NCBI GenBank assembly: GCA_020062745.1
Contig: JAGUVT010000051.1
Coordinates: 21,901-85,900, forward strand
Direction of reading: 5' to 3'
DNA from: Deltaproteobacteria bacterium
GTDB taxonomy: Bacteria; Bacillota; Desulfotomaculia; Desulfotomaculales; JAGUVT01
DNA: 64,000 bases
A program made the translations under genes and the position numbers. This document shows positions 54,641 through 64,000 of the stretch, in pieces (positions within the stretch are counted from its first letter, which is position 1; each line of letters starts with the position of its first letter). Below the pieces are notes generated by a model. The model was not told the origin of the DNA, made no database searches, and worked only from the letters and a program-made list of their open reading frames with translations.

Positions 54641-55300
54641 TTGACAGAACAAGAAATCATTATCAGGCTGGTGCTGGCAGTTGCCCTGGGCGGCTTTATC
54701 GGCCTGGAGCGGGAGCGGCTGCATGTTGGAGCAGGTACTTATTCAGCCGGGTTCCGCACGCACATTTTGGTGTGTGTGGGGGCAGCGGTCAGCATGCTGG
54801 TTTCCGAGTGGCTGCATTATGAATTTAAAAGTGATGCGGCGAGGGTTGCCGCCCAGGTGATCAGCGGTATCGGGTTTCTGGGCGCCGGCGCCATCATGCG
54901 TGAGGGCCTGCTAATCCGCGGGCTAACTACCGCTGCCAGTTTATGGGTTGTTGCGGCGGTGGGACTGGCGGCCGGCAGCGGTTTGTACCTGGTGGCTACT
55001 TTCAGTACTCTCCTGGTTTTATTTGCGCTGATAGTTCTGGGGACCCTGGAGGGCTTCGTGCGCGACCGGCGCAAATTCGATATAATCGGCATCGTGGTGG
55101 AAAACCAGCCGAGTCAAATCGGCTTAATCGGGTCGGTGCTGGGAGTGTCAAATGTTAAAAAAATTGAGGTAAGCAATATGGATGAAGGCGGCAAGTTGTT
55201 CGTGGAGGTCTGCCTTAAGCTGTCTCCCGAGCTGAATGTGGTTGAACTTGTCCAGAGACTGGCTGCCCTGCCGGGAGTGCAGCGGGTGGAGCAAAAGTAA
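54641..55300 (+). CDS. MgtC/SapB family membrane protein
   Basis: IIRLVLAVALGGFIGLERE, AAQVISGIGFLGAG and a soluble ACT-like C-terminus. Confidence 0.8.
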   Translation: MTEQEIIIRLVLAVALGGFIGLERERLHVGAGTYSAGFRTHILVCVGAAVSMLVSEWLHYEFKSDAARVAAQVISGIGFLGAGAIMREGLLIRGLTTAASLWVVAAVGLAAGSGLYLVATFSTLLVLFALIVLGTLEGFVRDRRKFDIIGIVVENQPSQIGLIGSVLGVSNVKKIEVSNMDEGGKLFVEVCLKLSPELNVVELVQRLAALPGVQRVEQK

Positions 55301-55418
55301 ATGGTACCCCTTTTTTAGAAGTAACAGCGTCGATTTGCTCCTCGTATTACCGGCTGTTTTCCGGGGCTCGTTTTTGGCGGCCGGTGTTTACAAAAAATTA
55401 AATATTGTTTTATGTTTA

Positions 55419-55465
55419 TAAACGGCAGGGACTCCCAACCCGGGGCCTTTGCCGTTTTTTGCTTT
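55419..55465 (+). terminator. Rho-independent terminator
   Basis: AAACGGCAGGG...CCTTTGCCGTTT stem followed by TTTTTTGCTTTTT. Confidence 0.55.
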
Positions 55466-55536
55466 TTACGGCGGGCCGTATGAATTTTTACTGATAAATT
55501 TTTTTGGTTGGTGCAATAAAAAATCACCAAATGTTA

Positions 55537-55564
55537 TTGACATATGCTCATATTTAAGTATAAT
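55537..55564 (+). promoter_or_regulatory. Near-consensus sigma-A promoter of the orp-like operon
   Basis: TTGACA-N16-TATAAT, 65 nt upstream of the DUF134 ATG. Flanked and overlapped by TATGCTCAT repeats. Confidence 0.65.
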
Positions 55565-55628
55565 TAATATGAACGTATGCTCATTATCTTTAGAGAAGTT
55601 TTTATGCTGATATTGAGAGGGTGAAAAA

Positions 55629-56093
55629 ATGCCGAGACCTCCAAAATACAGAAGAGTGGAATTTATGCCGCAGGAGACTTACTTTAAACCGGTCGGTGTA
55701 CCCCTGTCTTGCCTGGAAGAGATAGTTCTGACTGCAGAAGAACTGGAGAGTTTGCGCTTAAAGAATCTGGAAGGACTGGAACAGGAAGAGTGTGCAGCGA
55801 GAATGGGCATATCCCGGCCTACTTTCCAGCGCATCTTGACGAGTGCCGGGTTCAAGGTTACGGAGGCACTGGTAAAGGGCAAAGCTATCCGGATTGAGGG
55901 AGGAAACTTTCAGTTGGCGCCAATTCAATATTGCTGTGCGGATTGTCGCTGTGAATGGGAGGCTGTTCCGGCAAAAGGAGAGAATATTCTTTGTCCCTCC
56001 TGTGCCGGACGGAACATATTTTGCAAAGACTGTTTGCGTGGCCCCGGTGCTCGTGGCTGGGGCCGGTGCGGGCGGGGCAGGTGCAATCGCTGA
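55629..56093 (+). CDS. DUF134 (UPF0251) putative DNA-binding protein with Cys-rich C-terminal extension
   Basis: MPRPPKYRRVEFMPQETYFKP...LE.LRL..LEGL.QEE.A..MGISRPTFQRIL is the DUF134 signature. The C-terminal 54 aa contain 10 Cys. Confidence 0.8.
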   Translation: MPRPPKYRRVEFMPQETYFKPVGVPLSCLEEIVLTAEELESLRLKNLEGLEQEECAARMGISRPTFQRILTSAGFKVTEALVKGKAIRIEGGNFQLAPIQYCCADCRCEWEAVPAKGENILCPSCAGRNIFCKDCLRGPGARGWGRCGRGRCNR

Positions 56094-56126
56094 AGAATCA
56101 TAAAACTACGAAGGGAGAGAAAAAGG

Positions 56127-56969
56127 ATGTCGTCTTCTGAAGAGAAGGGAGAAGAAAACATTTCATGTGCGAAAGAACAATTTGAAAGGTTAAATCCCGG
56201 CGGTTCCAGTTGCATTGATAATGTAATCGCTGTTCTAAGCGGCAAGGGCGGGGTTGGAAAATCGGCTGTGACGGGTATTACGGCGGTTGCTCTGGCAAAA
56301 TGCGGGTATAGAGTAGGTGTTCTGGATGCTGATATTACAGGCCCGAGTATTCCTAAAATGTTTGGTTTGAACATGAGGCCGGAAACTGATACCCTGAGCG
56401 GGATTGTCGCGCCGGTAGAGACATCTCTCGGAATCAAGGTAATGTCCTTAAACCTGCTTCTTCCTGAAGAGACAGATCCTGTTATCTGGCGCGGCCCGAT
56501 AATTTCAAACGCCGTAAAACAATTCTGGACGGAAGTGAGTTGGGGGAACCTGGACTATTTGCTGATAGATCTACCACCGGGGACGGGTGATGTTCCTTTG
56601 ACGGTAATGCAGTCTTTGCCTCTTGACGGACTGGTTGTTGTGTTGTCTCCGCAGAAACTTGCCGTAATGGTGGTCAGGAAGGCGATAAAAATGGCGGATT
56701 TACTTGGGATTCGAATTCTGGGTCTGGTTGAAAATATGAGTTATATAGTTTGCCCGCAATGCGACGAAAAAATCGAGTTGTTCGGTCCAAGCTCTGGTGC
56801 GAAAGTATCGCAGATTACCGGTATTCCTTTAATGGCGGTTCTTCCGGTTGATTTACGACTGGCAGACCTTTGTGATAAAGGCCAGGTTGAACTTTATGAT
56901 AACAACTTGCTAAGCGGTATTATTGAAAAATTGTTTTATGAAAATGTTGCCGGAGGAGGTGAAGCTTAA
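56127..56969 (+). CDS. Mrp/NBP35 (ApbC) family P-loop Fe-S cluster carrier ATPase
   Basis: VLSGKGGVGKS deviant Walker A, DLPPGTGD and a CPQC cluster-ligand motif. Confidence 0.85.
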   Translation: MSSSEEKGEENISCAKEQFERLNPGGSSCIDNVIAVLSGKGGVGKSAVTGITAVALAKCGYRVGVLDADITGPSIPKMFGLNMRPETDTLSGIVAPVETSLGIKVMSLNLLLPEETDPVIWRGPIISNAVKQFWTEVSWGNLDYLLIDLPPGTGDVPLTVMQSLPLDGLVVVLSPQKLAVMVVRKAIKMADLLGIRILGLVENMSYIVCPQCDEKIELFGPSSGAKVSQITGIPLMAVLPVDLRLADLCDKGQVELYDNNLLSGIIEKLFYENVAGGGEA

Positions 56970-57286
56970 TGTACCGCAGGGGAGGTTTTGGGTTGGCGGC
57001 AGGTGGCAGAGCCGGCAGTCGCGGCTGGAACCAGTGGGGTTCCGGCAGGCAAGGCCGGGCGTTTGCGCAGCCGGCAGCAGCGGGCGGCTATACTTATGCA
57101 GGGCCGTGCCGGTGCGGCTTCGGGCCGCATGCGTTTTACCGGAATTCCAGCGGGGGGCTGGTTCATTCTAGAAGAATTTGGAATAACCCGGCTTGTGTTG
57201 CAAAAAATCCGGTCGAGCAGTTGAAGGCGGAGAAAGAGGAACTGGAGAGACGGCTGGCGGAATTGAACGAAAAAATAAAGGAGTAA
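56969..57286 (+). CDS. DUF5320-like protein (Gly/Arg-rich N-terminus, C-terminal coiled coil)
   Basis: 105 aa. TAATG overlap with the Mrp stop codon. The Gly-rich N-terminus contains PCRCGFGP, and the C-terminus is EQLKAEKEELERRLAELNEKIKE. Confidence 0.6.
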   Translation: MYRRGGFGLAAGGRAGSRGWNQWGSGRQGRAFAQPAAAGGYTYAGPCRCGFGPHAFYRNSSGGLVHSRRIWNNPACVAKNPVEQLKAEKEELERRLAELNEKIKE

Positions 57287-57344
57287 GCGGACCTTTCCGG
57301 GAACGGAGAAAATCCGTTCCCGGCCTCAGGGGAGGTGCATGTCT

Positions 57345-57545
57345 ATGCCGGTGTTGAAACTGGTTAGATTTATATGCGTTGCCTGCGGTAAGGAATTTGA
57401 GGCGTTGTGCGATGCCAGGCGGAGTGAAAAACCGGTGAGATGTCCGGAATGTGGCGGAGCGGTTCAACGGAGCCGGGTATATGTACTTGTTCCGGGTTTG
57501 AAGATGGCAAAAAGAAGAGCCGGAACTGTTGGTAAGGGCAAGTGA
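57345..57545 (+). CDS. FmdB-type CxxC zinc-ribbon protein
   Basis: MPVLKLVRFICVACGKEFE...RCPECGG. GGGGAGGTG RBS 7 nt upstream of this ATG. Confidence 0.6.
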   Translation: MPVLKLVRFICVACGKEFEALCDARRSEKPVRCPECGGAVQRSRVYVLVPGLKMAKRRAGTVGKGK

Positions 57546-57602
57546 GGGACGGAAGATGAGTAAGGTAAGACGCAAATCTACGGAGAAAGGAGGGAGTTGT
57601 AA

Positions 57603-57923
57603 TTGAAAATAGCAGTATCAGCAAGAGAAAATAATCTTGATGCGCTTGTGGATCCACGATTTGGAAGATGTCGTTATTTTATTCTGGCCGATCCGGAAAC
57701 CATGTCTTTTGAGACGTGTCCGAATCCGGGGGCGGATGCTGCCGGGGGCGCCGGGATAAAAGCGGCGCAGTTTGTGGTTTCTAAAAAGGCTGACGCTGTA
57801 ATTGCCGGTGAGGTTGGACCCCACGCGCTTCAGGCGTTGGAAGCCGGCAGGGTGAAAGTTTATACTGTTTCTTCCGGTACGGTAAGAGAAGTACTGGACA
57901 ATTACAAAAACGGCAAGCTTTAA
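57603..57923 (+). CDS. NifX/NafY/MTH1175-type (dinitrogenase FeMo-cofactor-binding domain) protein
   Basis: 106 aa with MKIAVSA...DPRFGRCRYFIL...GAGIKAAQFV...AVIAGEVGPHA. Confidence 0.8.
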   Translation: MKIAVSARENNLDALVDPRFGRCRYFILADPETMSFETCPNPGADAAGGAGIKAAQFVVSKKADAVIAGEVGPHALQALEAGRVKVYTVSSGTVREVLDNYKNGKL

Positions 57924-57933
57924 AGGAGGAATT

Positions 57934-58317
57934 TTGATGAAAATCGCGGTTGCTACGGACGGAAACGAAGTATCTGCCCATTTCGGGCATTGTCCGGAAT
58001 TTACTATTGCCGAAATCAGGGATGGAAAATTGTTTTCAAAAGAAGTGGTTGCCAGCCCGGGCCATGTTCCCGGTTTTTTACCGAAGCATATGGCCGCTCT
58101 TGGCGTCGAATGTGTTATTGCGGGAGGTATGGGACCCAGGGCCCAGGAGCTTCTGGCGGAAGCAGGAATTAAAACTATTGTAGGAGTATCCGGCCCGGTG
58201 AGCAGGGTTATTGATGATTTTGTGGCCGGGTGTCTGATTGGCGGGGAGAGTTCCTGCGATCACCATAAAGACGGTCACATATCGCACGAAGGGTGCGGAC
58301 ACGGGTGTCATGAATAA
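57934..58317 (+). CDS. NifX/NafY/MTH1175-type protein (second copy, His/Cys-rich tail)
   Basis: 127 aa with MKIAVATDGNEVSAHFGHCPEF...CVIAGGMGPRA. The tail is CDHHKDGHISHEGCGHGCHE. Confidence 0.8.
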   Translation: MMKIAVATDGNEVSAHFGHCPEFTIAEIRDGKLFSKEVVASPGHVPGFLPKHMAALGVECVIAGGMGPRAQELLAEAGIKTIVGVSGPVSRVIDDFVAGCLIGGESSCDHHKDGHISHEGCGHGCHE

Positions 58318-58331
58318 GGGGTGAGATATAA

Positions 58332-59198
58332 ATGATTATAGCCGTGGCAAGCGGAAAAGGAGGGACAGGCAAGACTACCGTAGCCGCCGGTCTGGCCATT
58401 TCAATGTCTGCTGAAAGAAAAATCCAGTTTTTGGACTGTGACGTGGAAGAGCCCGACGCGCATCTTTTCCTGCGGCCATCCCTTCTTGAAAAGGAACCTG
58501 TTTTTGTGCCTGAGCCGGTTGTAGATCAGTCTCTATGTGATTATTGCGGGCGGTGTATGGAAGTGTGCGCTTATAATGCGATTGCCGTCTTTGAGCGGAA
58601 CGTGCTGGTTTTTCCCCAGCTTTGCCACGGCTGCGGCGGTTGTTCTTATTTTTGCCCGTGCCGAGCCATCGCGGAAAAGGGTAGAATTATCGGCGTGCTT
58701 GAAGCCGGCCGGAGCGGCAACATGGATTTTGTACACGCCGTTTTGAATATCGGTGAGGCTCAGCCGGTTCCCCTGGTAAAGGCGGTAAAAAAGCGTTTAA
58801 ACCCGGAGTGCCTCGTTATTGTTGACGCTTCTCCGGGAACGTCCTGCCCGGTTGTGGAAGCTGTCCGGGGCTCCGGTTTTTGTCTCCTGGTTACGGAGCC
58901 CACACCCTTCGGCCTGCATGACCTTGCTATGGCGGTAGAAATGACTGAAGCGCTGAAGATTCCTCGTGGAGTTGTTATCAACAGATCCGATTTGAAGTAT
59001 GATGACATTATAGAAAATTTTTGTCTGTCCCGGGGCATTCCCTTGCTCTTAAAAATTCCTTTCAGCCGTGAAGTGGCGGGTTTTTATGCCCGTGGCGTTA
59101 ATATGGCCGAGGGAATTCCGGAGTGGCGGGAAACTTTCCGGGAACTCTATCAAAAGGTGATGGTTTTTAGTGAAACAGTTGCTCGTTATAAGCGGTAA
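58332..59198 (+). CDS. MinD/ParA-type P-loop ATPase with inserted 2x[4Fe-4S] ferredoxin domain
   Basis: ASGKGGTGKTT, then CDYCGRCMEVC and CHGCGGCSYFCP. Confidence 0.8.
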   Translation: MIIAVASGKGGTGKTTVAAGLAISMSAERKIQFLDCDVEEPDAHLFLRPSLLEKEPVFVPEPVVDQSLCDYCGRCMEVCAYNAIAVFERNVLVFPQLCHGCGGCSYFCPCRAIAEKGRIIGVLEAGRSGNMDFVHAVLNIGEAQPVPLVKAVKKRLNPECLVIVDASPGTSCPVVEAVRGSGFCLLVTEPTPFGLHDLAMAVEMTEALKIPRGVVINRSDLKYDDIIENFCLSRGIPLLLKIPFSREVAGFYARGVNMAEGIPEWRETFRELYQKVMVFSETVARYKR

Positions 59199-60027
59199 GG
59201 GTGGGACAGGCAAAACTACAATCGTCGGTTCGTTTGCCGTGCTGGCGAAAAAGAAGGTGCTGGCCGACTGCGACGTAGACGCGCCCAACCTGCACCTTCT
59301 TTTGAAACCGGAAGTAAAAACGAGCGGAGATTTTTACGGCGGTAAAAAAGCGCTTATTGATGCGGAAGAATGCCGGCAATGCGGCAAATGCATAGAATTA
59401 TGCCGCTTTGAGGCAATCAGTGGTGATTTCCAGGTGAACCCCCTCCTTTGCGAGGGGTGCGGGGTGTGTTTTCATGCCTGCCCGTATGAGGCAGTGAGTT
59501 TAATCGACGATTTATCCGGTAATTGGTGCATTTCCGAAACGGTATACGGGCCTTTTGTCCATGCCCGGCTGGGAGTGGCGGCGGAAAATTCCGGCAAGCT
59601 GGTGGCGAAGGTACGGGAGAAGGCAGGCGAACTAGCCGAAGAAAAGGGTAAGGACCTGATCATAATCGACGGTCCGCCGGGAATAGGCTGCCCCGTGGTA
59701 GCTTCATTGAGCGGTGTCGATCTGGCCCTGGTAGTTACCGAGCCGACGGTTGCGGGAATCCATGATCTGACGAGGATTCTCGGTGTGGCCGATTATTTCG
59801 GCGTGCGGAAAGCCGTTTGCATTAACAAATATGACCTGGATCAGGAAAAGAGCAAAGAGATAGAAGGTTATTGTGCCGAAAATGGGGTTGCAGTTGCAGG
59901 TAAAATATATTATGACCCGGCGGTAGGCAAGTCGCTGGCGGCAGCTACTCCTCTGATAAATTATGCCGGCAACAAAATGGCGCGACAGATAATAAAGCTC
60001 TGGCAGTCGGTGGAAGAGTTGCTATGA
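59170..60027 (+). CDS. MinD/ParA-type P-loop ATPase with inserted 2x[4Fe-4S] ferredoxin domain (paralog)
   Basis: ISGKGGTGKTT, then CRQCGKCIELC and CEGCGVCFHACP. Overlaps the upstream gene by 29 nt. Confidence 0.8.
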   Translation: MKQLLVISGKGGTGKTTIVGSFAVLAKKKVLADCDVDAPNLHLLLKPEVKTSGDFYGGKKALIDAEECRQCGKCIELCRFEAISGDFQVNPLLCEGCGVCFHACPYEAVSLIDDLSGNWCISETVYGPFVHARLGVAAENSGKLVAKVREKAGELAEEKGKDLIIIDGPPGIGCPVVASLSGVDLALVVTEPTVAGIHDLTRILGVADYFGVRKAVCINKYDLDQEKSKEIEGYCAENGVAVAGKIYYDPAVGKSLAAATPLINYAGNKMARQIIKLWQSVEELL

Positions 60028-60102
60028 ATGAGTGGCGGCCGCTTAAGCAAAGCAGGAAAACGGCTGCTGGTGCGGGGCTGGAGGTGCGTATTGCAGCCAG
60101 AC

Positions 60103-61422
60103 TTAACTGCCGGAGCCCAATAGTCCGTACCGTTTCATTTTTCGCCATAAGGTGGTTTTATTGATGCCGAGTTCGCGGGCCGAAGCTTTTTTATGCCAGT
60201 TGTTACGCATCAGCGAGTCGTAGATGGCCCGGGCTTCTACTTCAGCCAGAGTAACTCCTGTGGAAGGGGCCTGAATGGGTGAACTGTTATACAGGTAATC
60301 GGGCAGATGTTCGGGCGCGATTAACCCGCCCTTGCACATTATGAAAGCGTGTTCGATGATGTTTTCCAGTTCGCGGATGTTTCCCGCGTAATTATGGTGG
60401 GTCAGGATGGATTGCGCCTCTTTCGTAATGCCGATAATGGATTTTCCATGCATGATGTTGAACCGGTTGATAAAATGTTCCGTTAAAAGGGGGATGTCTT
60501 CACGGCGCTGGGATAAAGGCGGCAGGCTGATTTTAATTACATTGAGACGGTAATACAGGTCTTCCCGGAACAAACCTTCTTCAGTCAGCCGGGCCAGGTT
60601 TCTATTGGTTGCTGCCACGATACGCACGTTTGCCTTTTTCACCCTGGTGGCTCCGAGAGGCTCGTATTCTTTTTCCTGCAGGACGCGGAGCATTTTGGCC
60701 TGCAGTTTGGGTGAAAAGTCCCCGATTTCGTCCAGAAAGAGGGTGCCTTTTTCGGCCCGGGCAAAACGTCCCGGCTTGCTTTTGTGAGCGCCGGTAAAGG
60801 CTCCCGTTTCATAGCCGAACAGCTCCGACTCCAAAAGGGTATCGGGGATGGCGGCGCAGTTGACTGTTACCAGCGGCTTTGCCTGGCGGGAACTCAAATT
60901 ATGAATGGCCCGGGCCAGCAGTTCCTTGCCGGAACCGGTAGGACCTTCAATTAAGACAGTGCTTTCGCTCTTGGCGATGTCCGGCAGGATCTTGAAAACC
61001 TGGTGGAGCTGGTAGTTTTTGCTGATCATGTCAGCAAAAGTATACTGGCGGTAAAGTGTTTTTCGCAGTTCTTCTACCAGGGTCAGGTCACGAAAAGTTT
61101 CCGCCCCGCCGACTACTTGATTTTGCTCGTTTTTGAGAGCGGCCGTGCTGATACTGATGTGTACCTTCTTGCCAGCCGCGTTCACAATATAAATAGGTTT
61201 GTTTACTGTAGTACAATTTTTTTCAATGGCGGTTTTCAGGGCGCATTCTGTTTCGCAAATGCTGGCCCGGAAAACTTCCCGGCAGAAGCTGCCCAGGGCC
61301 TTTTCCCGCGCCACGCCGGTGATATTTTCGGCGGCCCGGTTGAAGTAAGTAATGCGCCAGTTGCGGTCGACGGTAAAAACCCCATCGGCAATACTGTCCA
61401 GGATGATGTTCTTGATACTCAT
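60103..61422 (-). CDS. PAS - sigma-54-interacting AAA+ - HTH transcriptional activator (EBP 1)
   Basis: GPTGSGKELLARAIH, ESELFGYETGAFTGA (GAFTGA), a C-terminal Fis-type HTH (LGINKTTLWRKMKRY) and a PAS-like N-terminus with 4 Cys. Confidence 0.9.
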   Translation of the reverse strand: MSIKNIILDSIADGVFTVDRNWRITYFNRAAENITGVAREKALGSFCREVFRASICETECALKTAIEKNCTTVNKPIYIVNAAGKKVHISISTAALKNEQNQVVGGAETFRDLTLVEELRKTLYRQYTFADMISKNYQLHQVFKILPDIAKSESTVLIEGPTGSGKELLARAIHNLSSRQAKPLVTVNCAAIPDTLLESELFGYETGAFTGAHKSKPGRFARAEKGTLFLDEIGDFSPKLQAKMLRVLQEKEYEPLGATRVKKANVRIVAATNRNLARLTEEGLFREDLYYRLNVIKISLPPLSQRREDIPLLTEHFINRFNIMHGKSIIGITKEAQSILTHHNYAGNIRELENIIEHAFIMCKGGLIAPEHLPDYLYNSSPIQAPSTGVTLAEVEARAIYDSLMRNNWHKKASARELGINKTTLWRKMKRYGLLGSGS

Positions 61423-61691
61423 GAATGATCAGCAACCTTTGGAATGATATTTCAATCTTTGCTAGGTGATAAAAATGCAAAATATATACCAAAGGGTGCA
61501 ATCTGCATTTTGTGGCATATTCACTCTTTTAGGAAATCATTTTTTAAGGAGAGTGGTGTTGCCTTCAGGGCAGTGCCGGCCTGCTGGGCGGGAGAGTCGT
61601 CGTCTTTTTCCAGCCTTCCCGGCGGAATATTGTGGCAGTGTTGCTGGAAAGCATAAACGCAAGGATGTTTTGGTGCATTTTGCAACCCGCT

Positions 61692-63041
61692 CTAGGTGGC
61701 GGGTTCATTTATGTTGTAACGTTTCATCTTTCTCCATAAAGTGGTTTTATTTATGCCCAGTTCTTGTGCCGTAGCCAGCCGGCGCCAGTTGTTCCGTGCC
61801 AGCGCGTCATAAATAGCGCTGGCTTCTATTTCAGTCAGGGCGGTTCCGGCCGGGGGCGCCTTTTGAGATGAGCCGGGCTGCAGACAGGAAGCAGGGAGGT
61901 GCTCGGTAGCAATCAGGCTGTTTTTACACATGATGAAGGCGTGTTCAATAATGTTTTCCAGTTCTCGAATATTGCCCGGGAAGTCATGTTGGAGTATGAG
62001 CGAATAAGCTTCTTTTGTAAGCCCGATAATGGATTTTCCCTGCAGGTTGTTGAAACGGTTGATAAAGTGTTCGATTAAAAGGGGGATGTCTTCACGGCGC
62101 TGGGATAAAGGCGGCAGGCTGATTTTAATTACATTGAGGCGGTAGTACAAATCTTTCCGGAAGGAGCCTTCTTCAATCATCCGGGCCAGGTTTTTATTGG
62201 TTGCCGCGATGATGCGCACGTCCGCCTTTTCCACCTTGGTGGCGCCAAGGGGTTCGTATTCTTTCTCCTGCAAAACGCGGAGAAGTTTAACCTGCAGAGC
62301 GGGTGAGACATCACCGATTTCGTCCAGAAAGAGGGTGCCTTTTTCCGCTCGGGCAAAACGTCCCGGTTTGCTTTTGCGGGCGCCGGTGAAGGCGCCCGCT
62401 TCGTAACCGAACAGTTCCGATTCCAGAAGGGTGTCGGGGAAGGCGGCGCAGTTAACTGTCACCAGGGGCTTTGTCTTACGGGAACTCAAATTGTGAATGG
62501 CCCGGGCCAGCAGTTCCTTGCCGGAACCGGTAGGACCTTCAATCAAGACGGTGCTTTCGCTGTTGGCGATGTCCGGCAGAATTTCGAAAATATGATGTAA
62601 CTGGTGATTTTTGCTGATAATATCGGCAAAGGTGTGCTGCTGGTAAATAACTTTGCGCAGTTCCTCCACCAGGGTCAGGTCACGGAAAGTTTCCGCCCCG
62701 CCGATTATCTGATCCTGCTCGTTTTTGAGGATGGCAGTGCTGATGCTGATGGGGATCTTTTTGCCGGAGGCATTTACGATATAAACGGCTTTGTTGACTA
62801 TGGGGCATTGCGTTTCAATGGTGGTGTTCAGGGCGCATTCCGTTTCGCAAATGTTGGCCTGAAAAACTTCCCGGCAGAGTCTGCCCAGGGCTTTTTCCCG
62901 CGCCACACCGGTGATGTTTTCGGCGGCCCGGTTGAAGTAAGTAATACGCCAGTTGCGGTCGACGGTAAAAACCCCGTCCGCGATGCTGTCCAGGATGATA
63001 TTTTTAGCAGGCATAATTATCGGCATTCCTTCTTTGTTCAC
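61692..63041 (-). CDS. PAS - sigma-54-interacting AAA+ - HTH transcriptional activator (EBP 2, paralog)
   Basis: Roughly 80% amino-acid identity to EBP 1 by eye, with the same motifs. The start is uncertain (63041 GTG or 63014 ATG, the latter aligning with the EBP 1 start). Confidence 0.9.
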   Translation of the reverse strand: MNKEGMPIIMPAKNIILDSIADGVFTVDRNWRITYFNRAAENITGVAREKALGRLCREVFQANICETECALNTTIETQCPIVNKAVYIVNASGKKIPISISTAILKNEQDQIIGGAETFRDLTLVEELRKVIYQQHTFADIISKNHQLHHIFEILPDIANSESTVLIEGPTGSGKELLARAIHNLSSRKTKPLVTVNCAAFPDTLLESELFGYEAGAFTGARKSKPGRFARAEKGTLFLDEIGDVSPALQVKLLRVLQEKEYEPLGATKVEKADVRIIAATNKNLARMIEEGSFRKDLYYRLNVIKISLPPLSQRREDIPLLIEHFINRFNNLQGKSIIGLTKEAYSLILQHDFPGNIRELENIIEHAFIMCKNSLIATEHLPASCLQPGSSQKAPPAGTALTEIEASAIYDALARNNWRRLATAQELGINKTTLWRKMKRYNINEPAT

Positions 63042-63070
63042 CTTTCACCGGCAATTATAACTGCTATGGC

Positions 63071-63103
63071 GGCAAAATGCAACCGTCGGAAGTGCATTTT
63101 GCA
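63071..63103. promoter_or_regulatory. Candidate EBP upstream activating sequence (paired TGCA-N3-TGCA palindromes)
   Basis: GGCAAAATGCA (63071-63081) and TGCATTTTGCA (63093-63103) in inverted orientation, 56 to 88 bp upstream of the -24/-12 promoter. The same motif occurs at 61497-61507 and 61674-61684. Confidence 0.45.
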
Positions 63104-63158
63104 CCCTTTAATTTTATTAATTTGCGGCCTGCCTGGCTTGAATGAGTGTTTCTTTGCC

Positions 63159-63174
63159 TGGTACGGGATTTGCA
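63159..63174 (+). promoter_or_regulatory. Sigma-54 (-24/-12) promoter
   Basis: TGGTAC-GGGAT-TTGCA, against the consensus TGGCAC-N5-TTGCW. It lies 48 nt upstream of the ATG at 63222 and divergent from a sigma-54 EBP gene. Confidence 0.7.
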
Positions 63175-63221
63175 CTTTCTCCTCTTAACTCGAAAATTAA
63201 ATTTGATTTGGAGGAGGAGCA

Positions 63222-64000
63222 ATGGAAGTAATTCACGCTAGCAGGCTGGATAGCACTTTTCGCAGTGAAGTAGCGGCAAAGTTTAGAACGGAGAAGGACC
63301 CGGAGGACTTTTTAAACTGTCTTGTCTGTGGAATGTGTGTCGCTGGCTGTCCTTATTATGATCTTCATGAACATGCGGACCCGCGCCGGTTTATTCGCAA
63401 GGTGGCTTTAGGTATGCGGGAAGATGTCTTAATGGATACGTTTATCTGGGCGTGTACCATGTGCGGCCGGTGCACCATGAACTGTCCGATGAATGTGGAC
63501 ATAGCCGGCGTGGTAAGGACAATCAGAGGAAATTTCGGTCTCAGGGCGCCGGGCTTTTTGCAGGATGTGGTGGAAAGTCAGATTAAGACGGGCAACCAGA
63601 TGGATATTACCACGGAGGAGTATCTGGAAACCCTGGAGTGGATGGAAGAAGAGCTGCAGGCGGAGGTAGGGGATCCGGAGGCAAAAATACCGGTTGATAA
63701 AGAGGGCGCCGACTTCTTGTTTTTGTGGGACCCGCGGGAAATAAAGTATTACCCGCAGGACGTGCAGAATATCGCCAAGATATTCTGGGCGGCCGGGGCG
63801 AACTGGACTTGTAGCAGCAGGTGGTGGGATTGTACTCATTATGCTCTGTTCAATGGTAATGACGAAGAGTCTCAGGTTTTGATTAAACGTTATGCGGAAG
63901 AGTACAAGCGCCTGAAAGTAAAGGAACTGGTTGTCACTGAATGCGGCCACGCTACTCGGGCGCAGCGCTGGGGACGGAAAGTATGGCTAAATGGGGCGGA
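63222..64000 (+). CDS. HdrD/DsrK-like Fe-S (CCG-domain family) protein, 3' end beyond window
   Basis: My own translation from the ATG, with GGAGGAGGAG upstream, gives MEVIHASRLDSTF...CLVCGMCVAGCP...CTMCGRCTMNCP (two 4Fe-4S motifs), then ...VVTECGHA. There is no stop codon before the window end. Confidence 0.7.
   Translation, partial: MEVIHASRLDSTFRSEVAAKFRTEKDPEDFLNCLVCGMCVAGCPYYDLHEHADPRRFIRKVALGMREDVLMDTFIWACTMCGRCTMNCPMNVDIAGVVRTIRGNFGLRAPGFLQDVVESQIKTGNQMDITTEEYLETLEWMEEELQAEVGDPEAKIPVDKEGADFLFLWDPREIKYYPQDVQNIAKIFWAAGANWTCSSRWWDCTHYALFNGNDEESQVLIKRYAEEYKRLKVKELVVTECGHATRAQRWGRKVWLNGA

What the first reader, a model, noticed from the sequence alone, without database searches (positions are those of the whole stretch)
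55537..60027. Eight-gene 'orp-like' metallocluster operon (DUF134 - Mrp - DUF5320 - Zn-ribbon - 2x NifX-like - 2x MinD-ferredoxin ATPase)
**What the sequence shows.** Eight same-strand genes follow one near-consensus sigma-A promoter. Gaps between them are 0 to 57 nt, or they overlap. The products are:
- a DUF134 DNA-binding protein;
- an Mrp/NBP35 Fe-S carrier (GKGGVGKS, CPQC);
- a Gly/Arg-rich DUF5320-like coiled-coil protein;
- an FmdB-type zinc ribbon;
- two small NifX/NafY/MTH1175-type cofactor-binding proteins, the second ending in a His/Cys-rich tail;
- two MinD/ParA ATPases, each with a 2x[4Fe-4S] ferredoxin insert.

There are no nitrogenase structural genes in the window.

**Established knowledge, from memory.** The combination of MTH1175-like proteins, Mrp and MinD-ferredoxin ATPases is the gene content of the Desulfovibrio vulgaris orange-protein (ORP, Mo/Cu-sulfide cluster) complex. 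As I recall, this is DVU2103-DVU2109. It was linked to cell division and morphology and is controlled by sigma-54 and a PAS-containing EBP. Its biochemical function is still unresolved.

**Inference.** This Firmicute version is arranged as a single operon. It has a dedicated DUF134 regulator plus DUF5320 and zinc-ribbon members, and it sits tail-to-tail with two PAS/sigma-54 EBPs. It is the best candidate in the window for an under-described system for assembling or trafficking a complex metal-sulfur cofactor.
Basis: partly seen in the sequence, partly recalled or inferred. Interest (0 to 1): 0.72.

Follow-up and report, generated by a model that had tools for sequence, protein, structure and literature searches.

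The report
DUF134-controlled orange-protein-type metal-sulfur operon
This is a real eight-gene operon of the poorly understood "orange protein" (ORP) type found in many anaerobes, which probably builds, holds or hands over iron-sulfur clusters; comparison with other genomes shows that its first gene, from a family with no known function (DUF134), is its DNA-binding regulator.

Summary
Eight same-strand genes (55629-60027) follow a perfect TTGACA-16-TATAAT promoter. Profile searches place them in:
- DUF134;
- Mrp/NBP35 (best model MrpORP);
- a DUF5320-related family (below threshold for this copy);
- an FmdB-type zinc ribbon;
- two Nitro_FeMo-Co proteins (the first is closest to the Desulfovibrio gigas orange protein, PDB 2WFB);
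- two MinD-type ATPases, each with two [4Fe-4S] motifs.

The ATPase pair plus NifX-like genes form a neighbourhood conserved across bacterial and archaeal phyla. Mrp occurs in about half of the loci, DUF134 in about a third, and glycine/arginine-rich small proteins and IscU-like genes in many.

New here: a 20-bp palindrome, TTATGAGCATATGCTCATAA, sits upstream of these clusters in many phyla. It occurs twice in the window, only at this promoter. A search with the palindrome alone recovered DUF134 genes in 66 of 80 metagenome loci. DUF134 is therefore the cluster's regulator, probably an autorepressor.

The two neighbouring sigma-54 activators are OrpR-like, with the same cysteine triad and a similar operator. 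[quoted passage not shown]

Verdict: a sigma-A/DUF134-controlled variant of the ORP system with the MrpORP domains split. Its biochemical function is still unproven.

The parts
55537..55564 (+). Sigma-A (sigma-70 type) promoter: -35 TTGACA at 55537-55542, 16-nt spacer, -10 TATAAT at 55559-55564.
   Evidence: Matches 12 of 12 positions and is the only perfect match in 55000-63500. The sequence was read directly.
55534..55553 (.). DUF134 operator site A, TTATTGACATATGCTCATAT. It overlaps the -35 hexamer and the spacer.
   Evidence: It has 2 mismatches to TTATGRRCATATGYYCATAA. It is one of only two matches in the 64-kb window, where 0.00 are expected by chance. The same palindrome lies upstream of DUF134/orp-like clusters in many phyla.
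55567..55586 (.). DUF134 operator site B, ATATGAACGTATGCTCATTA. It lies directly after the -10 hexamer and covers the expected transcription start.
   Evidence: It has 3 mismatches to the consensus. The same two-site layout (one site on the -35, one after the -10) occurs in L005, L024, L065 and L086.
55629..56093 (+). g1: DUF134/UPF0251 regulator. It has an HTH resembling sigma-70 region 4, a C-terminal Cys4 zinc ribbon (C103..C106, C122-P-x-C125) and a disordered Arg/Gly-rich tail.
   Evidence: Pfam DUF134 scores 70.9 bits. Alignment A4 shows the conserved cysteines. The AF2 model has three helices at 36-83, and Foldseek's top hits are the -35-binding domains of ECF sigma factors and DeoR.
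56127..56969 (+). g2: Mrp/NBP35-type Fe-S cluster carrier ATPase, with a deviant Walker A (GKGGVGKS) and a CPQC motif. It corresponds to the N-terminal half of MrpORP.
   Evidence: Pfam ParA/NUBPL scores 296 bits. NCBIfam MrpORP NF041136 scores 314.5 bits over model positions 3-233 of 365, below the 450-bit cut-off because the C-terminal domain is missing.
56969..57286 (+). g3: small DUF5320-related protein. It has a Gly/Arg/aromatic-rich N-terminus, a conserved core GYxY[VI]GPCRCGxGPHAFY and a C-terminal coiled coil.
   Evidence: Pfam DUF5320 scores only 15 bits. It does have real homologues, some named or scored as DUF5320 (E down to 4e-17). The conserved core is seen in A2. All 14 family members hit PF17253 at E<=0.1.
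57339..57545 (+). g4: FmdB-type CxxC...CxxC zinc-ribbon protein. The source annotation uses an alternative start at 57345.
   Evidence: TIGR02605 scores 32.1 against 31.3; Pfam Zn_ribbon_8 scores 33.2 against 34.4. Small zinc-ribbon genes recur inside the clusters.
57603..57923 (+). g5: single-domain NifX/MTH1175-type (Nitro_FeMo-Co) protein of the orange-protein (Orp8) type.
   Evidence: Pfam scores 81 bits. The best PDB match is 2WFB, the D. gigas ORP (E 2.2e-17), followed by TM1290 and MTH1175.
57934..58317 (+). g6: second Nitro_FeMo-Co protein, with a Cys/His-rich tail. It corresponds to the C-terminal domain of MrpORP.
   Evidence: Pfam scores 76 bits. NF041136 positions 264-363 score 95.7 bits. 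The best PDB match is TM1816. Cys/His-rich tails occur in 36 of 64 proteins of this subtype against 5 of 51 of the other subtype.
58332..59198 (+). g7: MinD-type ATPase with a 2x[4Fe-4S] ferredoxin insert (Orp3/Orp4 type).
   Evidence: Hits CbiA, ParA and Fer4. At least 8000 homologues. The AF2 model has pLDDT 89.9, and its nearest folds are MinD, ApbC, HypB-ATPase, Cfd1, CooC and NifH. The DCD and PGxxCP cysteines are conserved.
59170..60027 (+). g8: paralogous MinD-ferredoxin ATPase. It overlaps g7 by 29 nt.
   Evidence: 31% identical to g7 over the full length. The tandem pair is present in 79 of 80 related loci.
60103..63041 (-). Two OrpR-like PAS/sigma-54 activator genes (60103-61422 and 61692-63041). 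They are neighbours, and they are not shown to control the operon.
   Evidence: Hits Sigma54_activat, PAS and HTH_8. The C-x8-C-x3-C triad is shared with activators next to orp clusters in Desulfobacterota loci and with OrpR C52/C61/C65 (PMC8359166).
63072..63174 (+). Activator binding palindrome GCAAAATGCA-N11-TGCATTTTGC (63072-63102) and a sigma-54 -24/-12 element TGGTACGGGATTTGCA (63159-63174). Both lie in front of a CCG/HdrD-like gene starting at 63222. A second set lies in front of the first activator gene: an activator site at about 61672-61688 (its exact 10-mer at 61674-61683) and a -24/-12 element at 61476-61491, - strand.
   Evidence: The site resembles the published OrpR site GGGCGYRTTTTGCGCCC (PMC8359166). 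The exact 10-mer occurs only three times in the window, all in this region.

Best explanation
This is a sigma-A-transcribed, DUF134-autoregulated operon of the ORP ('orange protein') type, an anaerobe-wide module for handling labile iron-sulfur (or metal-sulfide) clusters.

**Shown here**
- The eight genes form one tightly packed unit behind a consensus promoter.
- Two copies of a palindrome that marks DUF134/orp-like clusters across phyla cover the -35 hexamer and the transcription start.
- The gene set corresponds to Orp3/Orp4 (g7, g8), Orp8 (g5) and a split Orp9/MrpORP (g2 plus g6).

**Inferred**
1. g1 binds the two operators as a dimer and represses the operon. It releases the DNA in response to a signal read by its Cys4/Arg-Gly tail, plausibly Fe-S or redox status.
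2. The Mrp dimer holds a bridging [4Fe-4S] cluster on its CPQC motif and passes it to the ferredoxin-insert ATPases and the NifX-like proteins. This transfer was shown for D. vulgaris MrpORP.
3. g7 and g8 form an ATP-sandwich heterodimer. Their four [4Fe-4S] clusters and extra conserved cysteines couple ATP hydrolysis to electron or cluster transfer.
4. g5 and g6 carry the cluster species. The cationic g3 protein and the g4 zinc ribbon act as accessory partners of the NifX-like carriers.
For: **Operon structure and promoter:**

**Family assignments:**

**Conserved neighbourhood** (80 loci from many bacterial and archaeal phyla, with counts for the 33 loci of at least 14 kb in brackets):

| Family | Loci with it |
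|---|---|
| ATPase pair | 79/80 |
| NifX-like | 76/80 |
| Mrp | 41/80 (22/33) |
| DUF134 | 28/80 (14/33) |
| IscU-like NifU_N | 32/80 |

**Operator**
- Only two matches in the window, both at this promoter, where 0.00 are expected.
- 18/28/43 matches at <=2/3/4 mismatches in about 1 Mb of related loci, against 0.07/0.5/4.4 in shuffles. The matches sit 11-120 nt upstream of DUF134 or of the first cluster gene.
- The exact 20-mer alone retrieved at least 120 metagenome stretches. In the 80 fetched, DUF134 was the adjacent gene in 66, and another cluster family in 8 more.

**g1 fold:** its HTH superposes on sigma-70 region 4 and the DeoR DNA-binding domain.

**Domain fusions elsewhere:** NifX + Gly/Arg linker + coiled coil; NifX + Gly/Arg + zinc ribbon; DUF134 + NifX; DUF134 + Gly/Arg zinc ribbon.

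**Literature**
- MrpORP binds Fe-S clusters on both domains and transfers them to apo-Orp proteins and to aconitase (PMC6345978).
- The five Orp proteins form a complex (cited in PMC6345978).
- The NifX-family protein IssA stores Fe-S and rebuilds a [4Fe-4S] ferredoxin (PMC5524996).
Against: - No experiment exists on this operon or on any DUF134 protein. Repression rather than activation is inferred only from the position of the sites.
- The function of the ORP complex is unresolved even in D. vulgaris, where a role in cell division has been proposed (PMC8359166).
- The orange protein itself was isolated with a Mo/Cu-sulfide cluster, not an Fe-S cluster.
- g3's DUF5320 membership is below threshold.
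- Co-occurrence counts are conditional on the ATPase that was used as the anchor. They rest on simple ORF calling and on profiles built from the window's own proteins.
- A single transcript is inferred, not measured. No clear intrinsic terminator follows g8.
Confidence: 0.65

Rival explanations
1. The operon builds, carries or detoxifies a heterometallic Mo(W)/Cu-sulfide cluster, like the [S2MoS2CuS2MoS2] cluster found in the orange protein, rather than ordinary Fe-S clusters.
For: g5's closest solved relative is the D. gigas orange protein 2WFB. Orp8 homologues harbour the Mo/Cu cluster (PMC6345978). The Nitro_FeMo-Co family includes carriers of Mo-containing cofactors.
Against: There are no Mo/W or Cu transport, molybdopterin or Moco-riboswitch features next to the operon. 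Related clusters often include IscU-like Fe-S scaffold genes, in 32 of 80 loci. Mrp and the ATPases are Fe-S proteins. The module is far more widespread than any known Mo/Cu-cluster requirement.
Confidence: 0.1
2. The NifX-like proteins, together with the cationic Gly/Arg-rich partners (g3 and the tails on g1), form a split IssA-like system. It stores iron and sulfide as an anionic polymer (thioferrate) and releases it as clusters, powered and reduced by the ferredoxin-MinD ATPases.
For: IssA is the same domain plus a cationic Gly/Arg/aromatic tail that binds thioferrate, and an uncharacterised glycine-tailed 'IssX' clade was noted (PMC5524996). Many cluster-encoded NifX-like proteins carry (GMGR)n tails plus a coiled coil. 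g3 has the same composition and coiled coil as a separate protein. A g3-type gene paired with a NifX-like gene sits behind a perfect operator in L085.
Against: g3's similarity to the tails is no better than that of composition-matched shuffles. g3 has its own conserved CxC...H core, which points to a discrete metal site. g5 and g6 in the window have no cationic tail. No particle or thioferrate data exist outside Pyrococcus.
Confidence: 0.15
3. The module acts mainly in cell division or positioning. The MinD-like ATPases would place a structure in the cell, as first proposed for the D. vulgaris Orp proteins.
For: The nearest folds of g7 are MinD, FleN/FlhG, Soj and McdA. Inactivation of OrpR in D. 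vulgaris causes morphological defects (PMC8359166).
Against: The same fold class includes the metal-centre ATPases ApbC, Cfd1, HypB, CooC and NifH. All partners are metal or cluster binders. No division genes are linked in the 80 loci. The ferredoxin inserts and conserved cysteines have no role in known MinD positioning.
Confidence: 0.07
4. As in D. vulgaris, the operon is driven by sigma-54 and by the adjacent OrpR-like activators. The sigma-A promoter would then be secondary.
For: The activators are adjacent and OrpR-like in their cysteine triad and operator sequence (PMC8359166). A weak -24/-12-like sequence, cGGaAC-N5-TTGCA, lies at 56010-56025 inside the 3' end of g1.
Against: No -24/-12 element lies upstream of g1. 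The 56010 match has 2 mismatches, and such matches occur at the chance rate (33 observed, 32 expected). It has no activator site nearby, and all three exact sites are in the activator region. Activators were found next to only 8 of the 80 related loci scanned, none of them assigned to Bacillota.
Confidence: 0.08

Closest known systems
ORP (orange protein) complex and orp operons of Desulfovibrio vulgaris Hildenborough (DVU2103-DVU2109; Orp3, Orp4, Orp5, Orp8, Orp9)
   Same: The protein families match: two paralogous MinD-like ATPases with two [4Fe-4S] motifs each, two small Nitro_FeMo-Co proteins (one of the orange-protein type), and an Mrp/NBP35 carrier. OrpR-like activator genes lie next door (PMC6345978, PMC8359166).
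   Different: This is one operon instead of two divergent ones. It has a sigma-A promoter with DUF134 operators instead of sigma-54/OrpR/IHF control. The Mrp and its Nitro_FeMo-Co domain are separate genes. It has extra DUF134, DUF5320-related and zinc-ribbon genes.
MrpORP (NCBIfam NF041136; Orp9/DVU2109 and Dde_3202)
   Same: g2 is best matched by this model (314.5 bits) and has the deviant Walker A and CxxC motifs. g6 matches the model's C-terminal domain (95.7 bits).
   Different: It is not a two-domain protein. g2 falls below the 450-bit equivalog cut-off, and the two halves are separated by three genes. Unfused Mrp (about 270-340 aa) is the more common form in related clusters.
OrpR (DVU2106), a sigma-54 activator with a [4Fe-4S]-binding PAS domain
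   Same: The two neighbouring activators share the domain order and the C-x8-C-x3-C triad with an acidic residue at +2. Their operator, GTGCATTTTGCACCC, resembles GGGCGYRTTTTGCGCCC (PMC8359166).
   Different: Their sites and sigma-54 promoters precede one of the activator genes and a CCG/HdrD-like gene, not the orp-like operon.
IssA of Pyrococcus furiosus (thioferrate Fe-S storage) and the NifX/NafY/NifB-C-terminal domain family (IPR003731, PF02579)
   Same: g5 and g6 have the same globular domain. Cationic Gly/Arg/aromatic-rich sequences accompany it in these clusters, either fused or as the separate g3-type protein (PMC5524996).
   Different: The window's two proteins have no cationic tail (g6 has a Cys/His tail). 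No storage particles have been shown. No nitrogenase genes are present.
SIMIBI-class metal-centre ATPases (ApbC/Nbp35/Cfd1, HypB-ATPase type, CooC, NifH/BchL) and MinD
   Same: g7 and g8 share the fold and the deviant Walker A lysine that marks ATP-sandwich dimers.
   Different: About 60 residues carrying two [4Fe-4S] motifs are inserted after switch I, and there are two further conserved cysteines (DCD and PGxxCP). No solved structure has this arrangement.

Membership tests
ORP/orp gene cluster (D. vulgaris type) | A pair of paralogous MinD-like ATPases, each with two [4Fe-4S] ferredoxin motifs (Orp3/Orp4). | tested here: met
   g7 and g8 hit CbiA/ParA plus Fer4 and each has two CxxCxxCxxxC motifs. 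They are 31% identical.
ORP/orp gene cluster (D. vulgaris type) | An orange-protein-type single-domain Nitro_FeMo-Co protein (Orp8) plus a second one (Orp5). | tested here: met
   g5's best PDB match is ORP 2WFB (E 2.2e-17). g6 scores 76 bits on PF02579.
ORP/orp gene cluster (D. vulgaris type) | Sigma-54 promoters activated by OrpR. | tested here: not met
   The promoter is a perfect sigma-70-type match. There is no -24/-12 element or activator site upstream of g1. OrpR-like genes are adjacent, but their sites lie elsewhere.
ORP/orp gene cluster (D. vulgaris type) | The proteins form a physical complex and carry metal-sulfide clusters. | not testable with these tools
   This needs pull-downs and metal analysis.
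MrpORP (NF041136 equivalog) | A two-domain protein (Mrp/NBP35 plus Nitro_FeMo-Co) scoring at least 450 bits. | tested here: not met
   g2 scores 314.5 bits and covers model positions 3-233 of 365. The C-terminal domain is encoded separately by g6 (95.7 bits, positions 264-363).
Mrp/NBP35/ApbC Fe-S carrier ATPases (PF10609) | A deviant Walker A GKGGhGK[ST], a CxxC motif and the Pfam gathering score. | tested here: met
   Scores 296 bits against 27.1. GKGGVGKS and CPQC are present.
DUF134 / UPF0251 (PF02001) | The Pfam gathering score over the full domain. | tested here: met
   Scores 70.9 bits against 27, over profile positions 6-96 of 98. 1160 homologues have E<1e-5.
DUF5320 (PF17253) | The Pfam gathering score (27 bits). 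| tested here: inconclusive
   g3 scores 15 bits, E 0.057. All 14 members of its homologue family hit PF17253 at E<=0.1 (best 2.7e-6), and one is named DUF5320 by UniRef. hhalign against bona fide members gives 97% probability, but only over the 29-column coiled coil. A profile of the tails scores g3 no better than shuffles.
FmdB-type zinc ribbon (TIGR02605 / PF09723) | Two CxxC pairs and the curated score. | tested here: met
   TIGR02605 scores 32.1 against 31.3 (met). PF09723 scores 33.2 against 34.4 (just missed). CVAC...CPEC is present.
Nitro_FeMo-Co / NifX-NafY-MTH1175 domain (PF02579) | The Pfam gathering score. | tested here: met
   g5 scores 81 bits and g6 scores 76.3 bits against 26.3.
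IssA-type thioferrate storage protein | An IPR003731 domain with a cationic Gly/Arg/aromatic tail on the same polypeptide, and particle formation. | tested here: not met
   g5 has no tail and g6 has a Cys/His tail. A cationic partner, g3, is encoded separately. Fused tails occur in relatives. Particle formation cannot be tested here.
OrpR-type PAS [4Fe-4S] sigma-54 activator (the two neighbouring genes) | PAS, AAA+ and HTH_8 domains with three conserved PAS cysteines spaced 9 and 4 residues apart (C-x8-C-x3-C). | tested here: met
   Domains were found. The cysteines are C47/C56/C60 and C56/C65/C69, the same spacing as in activators next to orp clusters in L047, L063, L073 and L074. The published residues are C52/C61/C65 (PMC8359166). 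Cluster binding itself was not tested.

The most novel reading that the evidence does not exclude
The operon is a split, ATP- and electron-driven counterpart of the IssA system. Cationic Arg/Gly-rich segments recur on its parts: the stand-alone DUF5320-type protein g3, the tails of NifX-like proteins in other lineages, the small Gly/Arg-rich zinc-ribbon proteins of related clusters (the window's own g4 is not of this type), and the tail of the DUF134 regulator. On this reading they all bind one anionic iron-sulfide species. The same molecule would then be stored, passed to Mrp and the ferredoxin-MinD ATPases, and sensed by the repressor. That would be a previously unrecognised, anaerobe-wide route from inorganic Fe and sulfide to Fe-S clusters, with its own dedicated regulator family.
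Probability: 0.15. Interest if true: 0.8.

Novelty: new variant of a known kind. Interest (0 to 1): 0.55.

Why it matters
The ORP system was defined in Desulfovibrio in 2011 and is confined to anaerobes. What it does is still unknown. This window shows what looks like the commoner form of the system, which I could not find described: one sigma-A operon with a split MrpORP and DUF134, DUF5320 and zinc-ribbon members.

The comparison also gives DUF134 a concrete, testable role. DUF134 is one of Pfam's oldest families without a function, and a full-text search found nothing on it. The proposed role is regulator of these clusters, acting through a 20-bp palindrome conserved from Bacillota to Chloroflexota, with a related motif in Archaea.

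If this holds, several things follow:
- DUF134 genes could be annotated as regulators.
- Their regulon could be predicted from sequence.
- The signal that switches the system on could be sought directly, which is the shortest route to its function.
- The domain fusions give clear hypotheses about which proteins work together.

Tried and rejected
1. **Internal sigma-54 promoter at 56010-56025.** It has 2 mismatches, such matches occur at the chance rate (33 observed, 32 expected), and there is no activator site nearby. I rejected it as probably chance.
2. **g3 homology to the Gly/Arg + coiled-coil tails.** A profile built from them gave 11.1 bits, no better than shuffles of g3 (maxima 11.8 and 20.8). 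This is similarity of composition and architecture only.
3. **Rfam scan of the whole window** for a riboswitch such as Moco. Nothing was found.
4. **PDB sequence search with g1.** No relative was found. The fold search gave only the small HTH core, with weak E-values.
5. **Intrinsic terminator after g8.** The hairpins are not significant (z = -1.4).
6. **What the OrpR-like activators control beyond the CCG/HdrD-like gene.** Every contig that carries them ends about 114 nt after that gene.
7. **Literature.** Full-text searches for DUF134, DUF5320 and UPF0251 found nothing functional. The founding 2011 ORP paper is not held, so its comparative-genomics claims could not be read.
8. **The window's lineage among reference genomes.** It was not found at high identity. 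The nearest named relatives are Peptococcaceae MAG proteins.

Full report
**1. The observation**

The table gives coordinates and family scores.

| Gene | Coordinates | Assignment |
|---|---|---|
| g1 | 55629-56093 | DUF134, 70.9 bits (cut-off 27) |
| g2 | 56127-56969 | Mrp/NUBPL ParA, 296 bits; GKGGVGKS and CPQC motifs |
| g3 | 56969-57286 | DUF5320, only 15 bits (cut-off 27, E 0.057) |
| g4 | 57339-57545 | FmdB zinc ribbon: TIGR02605 32.1 vs 31.3; Pfam 33.2 vs 34.4 |
| g5 | 57603-57923 | Nitro_FeMo-Co, 81 bits |
| g6 | 57934-58317 | Nitro_FeMo-Co, 76 bits; Cys/His-rich tail |
| g7 | 58332-59198 | CbiA/MinD plus two CxxCxxCxxxC motifs |
| g8 | 59170-60027 | CbiA/MinD plus two CxxCxxCxxxC motifs |

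- Spacings between successive genes are 33, -1, 52, 57, 10, 14 and -29 nt.
- The same genes were called on the source record, an 86-kb JGI metagenome contig.
- The closest named relatives of its proteins are from Peptococcaceae MAGs.
- TTGACA-16-TATAAT at 55537-55564 is a 12/12 match and the only perfect one in 55000-63500.

**2. Relation to the ORP system**

- g5's best solved relative is the D. gigas orange protein 2WFB (E 2.2e-17), ahead of TM1290 and MTH1175. g6's best solved relative is TM1816.
- NCBIfam's best model for g2 is MrpORP (314.5 bits). The match covers only the N-terminal 233 of 365 model positions and stays below the 450-bit cut-off.
- g6 matches the missing C-terminal domain (95.7 bits). 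So g2 and g6 together make a split MrpORP.
- According to PMC6345978, the D. vulgaris complex consists of Orp3 and Orp4 (ferredoxin-motif ATPases), Orp5 and Orp8 (small cofactor-binding proteins) and Orp9 (MrpORP). MrpORP transfers Fe-S clusters to apo-Orp proteins.

**3. The neighbouring activators**

- Both PAS/sigma-54 activators carry C-x8-C-x3-C in the PAS domain. Activators next to orp clusters in Desulfobacterota-type loci have the same triad. The spacing matches the three cysteines that bind the redox-sensing [4Fe-4S] cluster of OrpR (PMC8359166).
- Their likely binding site, GTGCATTTTGCACCC, is part of the palindrome GCAAAATGCA-N11-TGCATTTTGC at 63072-63102. It resembles the published OrpR site GGGCGYRTTTTGCGCCC.
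- The three exact copies of the 10-mer in the window all lie in the activator region.
- The good sigma-54 elements precede the first activator gene (61476-61491, - strand) and a CCG/HdrD-like gene (63159-63174, + strand).
- Upstream of g1 there is neither a sigma-54 element nor an activator site.
- A 2-mismatch candidate inside g1 (56010) is at the chance level and has no site near it.
- So OrpR-like genes are linked to the operon, but there is no evidence that they drive it.

**4. Conservation**

- g7 has at least 8000 homologues at E<1e-10. The nearest non-self sequences are 77% and about 60% identical.
- A scan of one genome per species found 547 relatives, and 80 loci were kept. They span Chloroflexota, Omnitrophota, Planctomycetota, Desulfobacterota, Bacillota, Ignavibacteria, Zixibacteria, Bathyarchaeia, Methanophagales, Thermoplasmata and others.
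- I scored these loci with profiles built from the window's proteins. Counts for the 33 loci of at least 14 kb are in brackets.

| Family | Loci with it (of 80) |
|---|---|
| Tandem ATPase pair | 79 |
| NifX-like genes | 76 |
| Mrp | 41 (22 of 33) |
| DUF134 | 28 (14 of 33) |
| Gly/Arg-rich zinc-ribbon proteins | 34 |
| IscU-like NifU_N | 32 |
| Sigma-54 activators | 8 |

- The window's gene order (DUF134, Mrp, NifX-like genes, ATPase pair) recurs in Zixibacteria and Ignavibacteria (L015, L032, L034).
- A Tepidanaerobacter contig has DUF5320-NifX-ATPase-ATPase-DUF134-Mrp-NifX.
- Genes in the gaps between recognised members include bona fide DUF5320 (48-63 bits), NifU_N, DUF364, DUF169 and metallo-beta-lactamase-fold proteins.
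- The neighbourhood is therefore conserved, but only part of it is constant.

**5. g3 and the Gly/Arg-rich theme**

- g3 has real homologues (E down to 4e-17 against 5.8 billion sequences). One is named DUF5320 by UniRef and one has a precomputed PF17253 hit.
- The family has an invariant core GYxY[VI]GPCRCGxGPHAFY and a C-terminal coiled coil.
- All 14 members touch PF17253 at E<=0.1. Profile-profile similarity to bona fide DUF5320 is limited to the coiled coil. A profile of the tails does not beat shuffles. Membership is therefore inconclusive.
- g3-type genes pair with NifX-like genes elsewhere.
- Many cluster-encoded NifX-like proteins of 170-200 aa consist of the NifX domain, a (GMGR)n linker and a coiled coil ending ...ELEKK. 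That is a fusion of a g5-like part and a g3-like part.
- Other fusions join NifX to a Gly/Arg zinc ribbon, DUF134 to NifX, and DUF134 to a Gly/Arg zinc ribbon.
- This echoes IssA, where the same domain plus a cationic Gly/Arg/aromatic tail stores Fe-S as thioferrate (PMC5524996).

**6. DUF134 is the regulator**

- Upstream regions of DUF134 genes from different phyla share a 20-bp palindrome, consensus TTATGAGCATATGCTCATAA.
- In the window the pattern occurs only twice in 64 kb on both strands, where 0.00 are expected: at 55534-55553 (over the -35) and at 55567-55586 (just after the -10).
- In about 1 Mb of related loci there are 18/28/43 matches at <=2/3/4 mismatches, against 0.07/0.5/4.4 in shuffles.
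- These matches lie 11-120 nt upstream of DUF134, or of the first NifX-like, ATPase or zinc-ribbon gene when DUF134 sits elsewhere in the cluster.
- The same two-site promoter layout recurs in L005, L024, L065 and L086.
- As an independent test I searched metagenome contigs with the exact 20-mer alone. At least 120 stretches matched. In the 80 fetched, the gene next to the site is DUF134 in 66, DUF5320 or NifX-like in 5, and NifU_N or MBL in 3.
- Full operons such as DUF134-DUF364-DUF5320-NifX-GRG zinc ribbon-ATPase-ATPase-zinc ribbon-NifX-Mrp-NifU_N-MBL follow the site.
- g1's model has a three-helix HTH that superposes on sigma-70 region 4 and the DeoR DNA-binding domain. This is followed by a Cys4 zinc ribbon (C103, C122-P-x-C125 invariant) and a disordered Arg/Gly tail.
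- The position of the sites argues for repression. That step is inferred.

**7. The ATPases**

- g7 and g8 are 31% identical.
- The g7 model is confident (pLDDT 89.9). Its nearest folds are MinD, ApbC, FleN, ATPase-type HypB, Cfd1, CooC and NifH. None of these has the ferredoxin insert.
- Across relatives, the deviant Walker A, both ferredoxin motifs and two further cysteines (DCD and PGxxCP) are nearly invariant.
- From memory, the PGxxCP cysteine lies 7 residues after the Walker B aspartate, the same spacing as the cluster ligand in switch II of NifH. This is a lead, not a test.

**8. Most likely mechanism**

- *Shown:* one compact unit, a consensus promoter, two operators, ORP-type gene content, and conserved linkage.
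- *Inferred:* g1 represses until a cluster or redox signal is read. Mrp carries [4Fe-4S] clusters. The g7/g8 heterodimer couples ATP hydrolysis to electron or cluster transfer. g5 and g6 carry the cluster species, with g3 and g4 as partners.
- *Rivals:* Mo/Cu-cluster handling, IssA-like storage, a role in cell division, and sigma-54 control. Each is listed with its evidence in the Rival explanations section.

**9. Novelty and score**

- The kind of system is known (ORP) and this is a new instance of it. The form seen here has sigma-A/DUF134 control, a split MrpORP and DUF5320/zinc-ribbon members. It is widespread, and I could not find it described.
- Full-text searches found nothing functional on DUF134 or DUF5320.
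- I rate it a new variant of a known kind, with interest 0.55. It would not astonish a specialist, but it turns two open questions into direct experiments: what DUF134 does, and what switches ORP systems on.

**10. Limits**

- ORFs in the loci were called naively. The profiles derive from the window's own proteins.
- Counts of Gly/Arg-rich ORFs may include spurious frames.
- Co-occurrence is conditional on the ATPase anchor and on the best 80 of 547 hits.
- The founding 2011 ORP paper could not be read.

Noticed in passing
window 60103-64000: Two paralogous OrpR-like activator genes sit in tandem. They come with their own sigma-54 elements (61476-61491 on the - strand, 63159-63174 on the + strand) and shared upstream motifs (TTGCACCCTTT and GCAAAATGCA). 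One set points at a CCG/HdrD-like Fe-S oxidoreductase gene starting at 63222. This looks like a small OrpR-type regulon separate from the orp-like operon.
   Followed up: partly
window 61521-61685 (- strand): A 54-codon ORF lies between the two activator genes and is called as a gene in the source annotation. It has no family hit.
   Followed up: no
L089, L090 and L091 (the window's right end): The contigs from three different samples that extend through the CCG/HdrD-like gene all stop about 114 nt after it. This suggests a repeat or a strain-variable junction there.
   Followed up: no
L087 7850-9347; L088 7850-9385: In a Desulfotomaculum contig and a Bacillota MAG, DUF134 and Mrp form a two-gene module next to folate genes, without the NifX-like or ATPase genes. 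Instead of the usual palindrome, a different motif (ACACGCGTC / ACATACGCGTCC) follows the -10 hexamer.
   Followed up: partly
L054 246; L064 3102; L079 5864; L084 6799; also L037, L045 and L070 upstream regions: Archaeal loci carry variant palindromes (TGAATATATATTCA, or TATGCACA...TGTGCATA) at the corresponding positions. This suggests the DUF134-operator pairing extends to Archaea with a shifted specificity.
   Followed up: partly
L067 665-1462; L079 9690-10124; L041 7428-8000; L035, L039, L046, L052 and L079 long NifX-like ORFs: Several domain fusions occur: DUF134+NifX, DUF134+Gly/Arg zinc ribbon, NifX+Gly/Arg zinc ribbon, and tandem fusions of the two NifX-like subtypes.
   Followed up: partly
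contig (no DNA held), genes at 746-1878: A MerR-family HTH fused to a Nitro_FeMo-Co domain lies beside another Nitro_FeMo-Co gene and near the g3 homologue P0136, whose source name is Thermosulfidibacter takaii. This would be a second type of regulator linked to this domain.
   Followed up: no
window 1-55300: Upstream of the operon, nearly all large ORFs are on the + strand and GC skew is positive throughout. The immediate neighbours are housekeeping genes (dxr, rseP, ispG, proS, an MGDG-synthase-like glycosyltransferase, MgtC). The operon therefore sits in a core, leading-strand region rather than on a mobile element.
   Followed up: partly
L018, L020, L026, L027, L044, L049 and L055 (Omnitrophota loci), just upstream of the ATPase pair: A SAM-methyltransferase-like gene of about 200 aa is inserted in the cluster in this phylum only (14 of 80 loci overall).
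   Followed up: no
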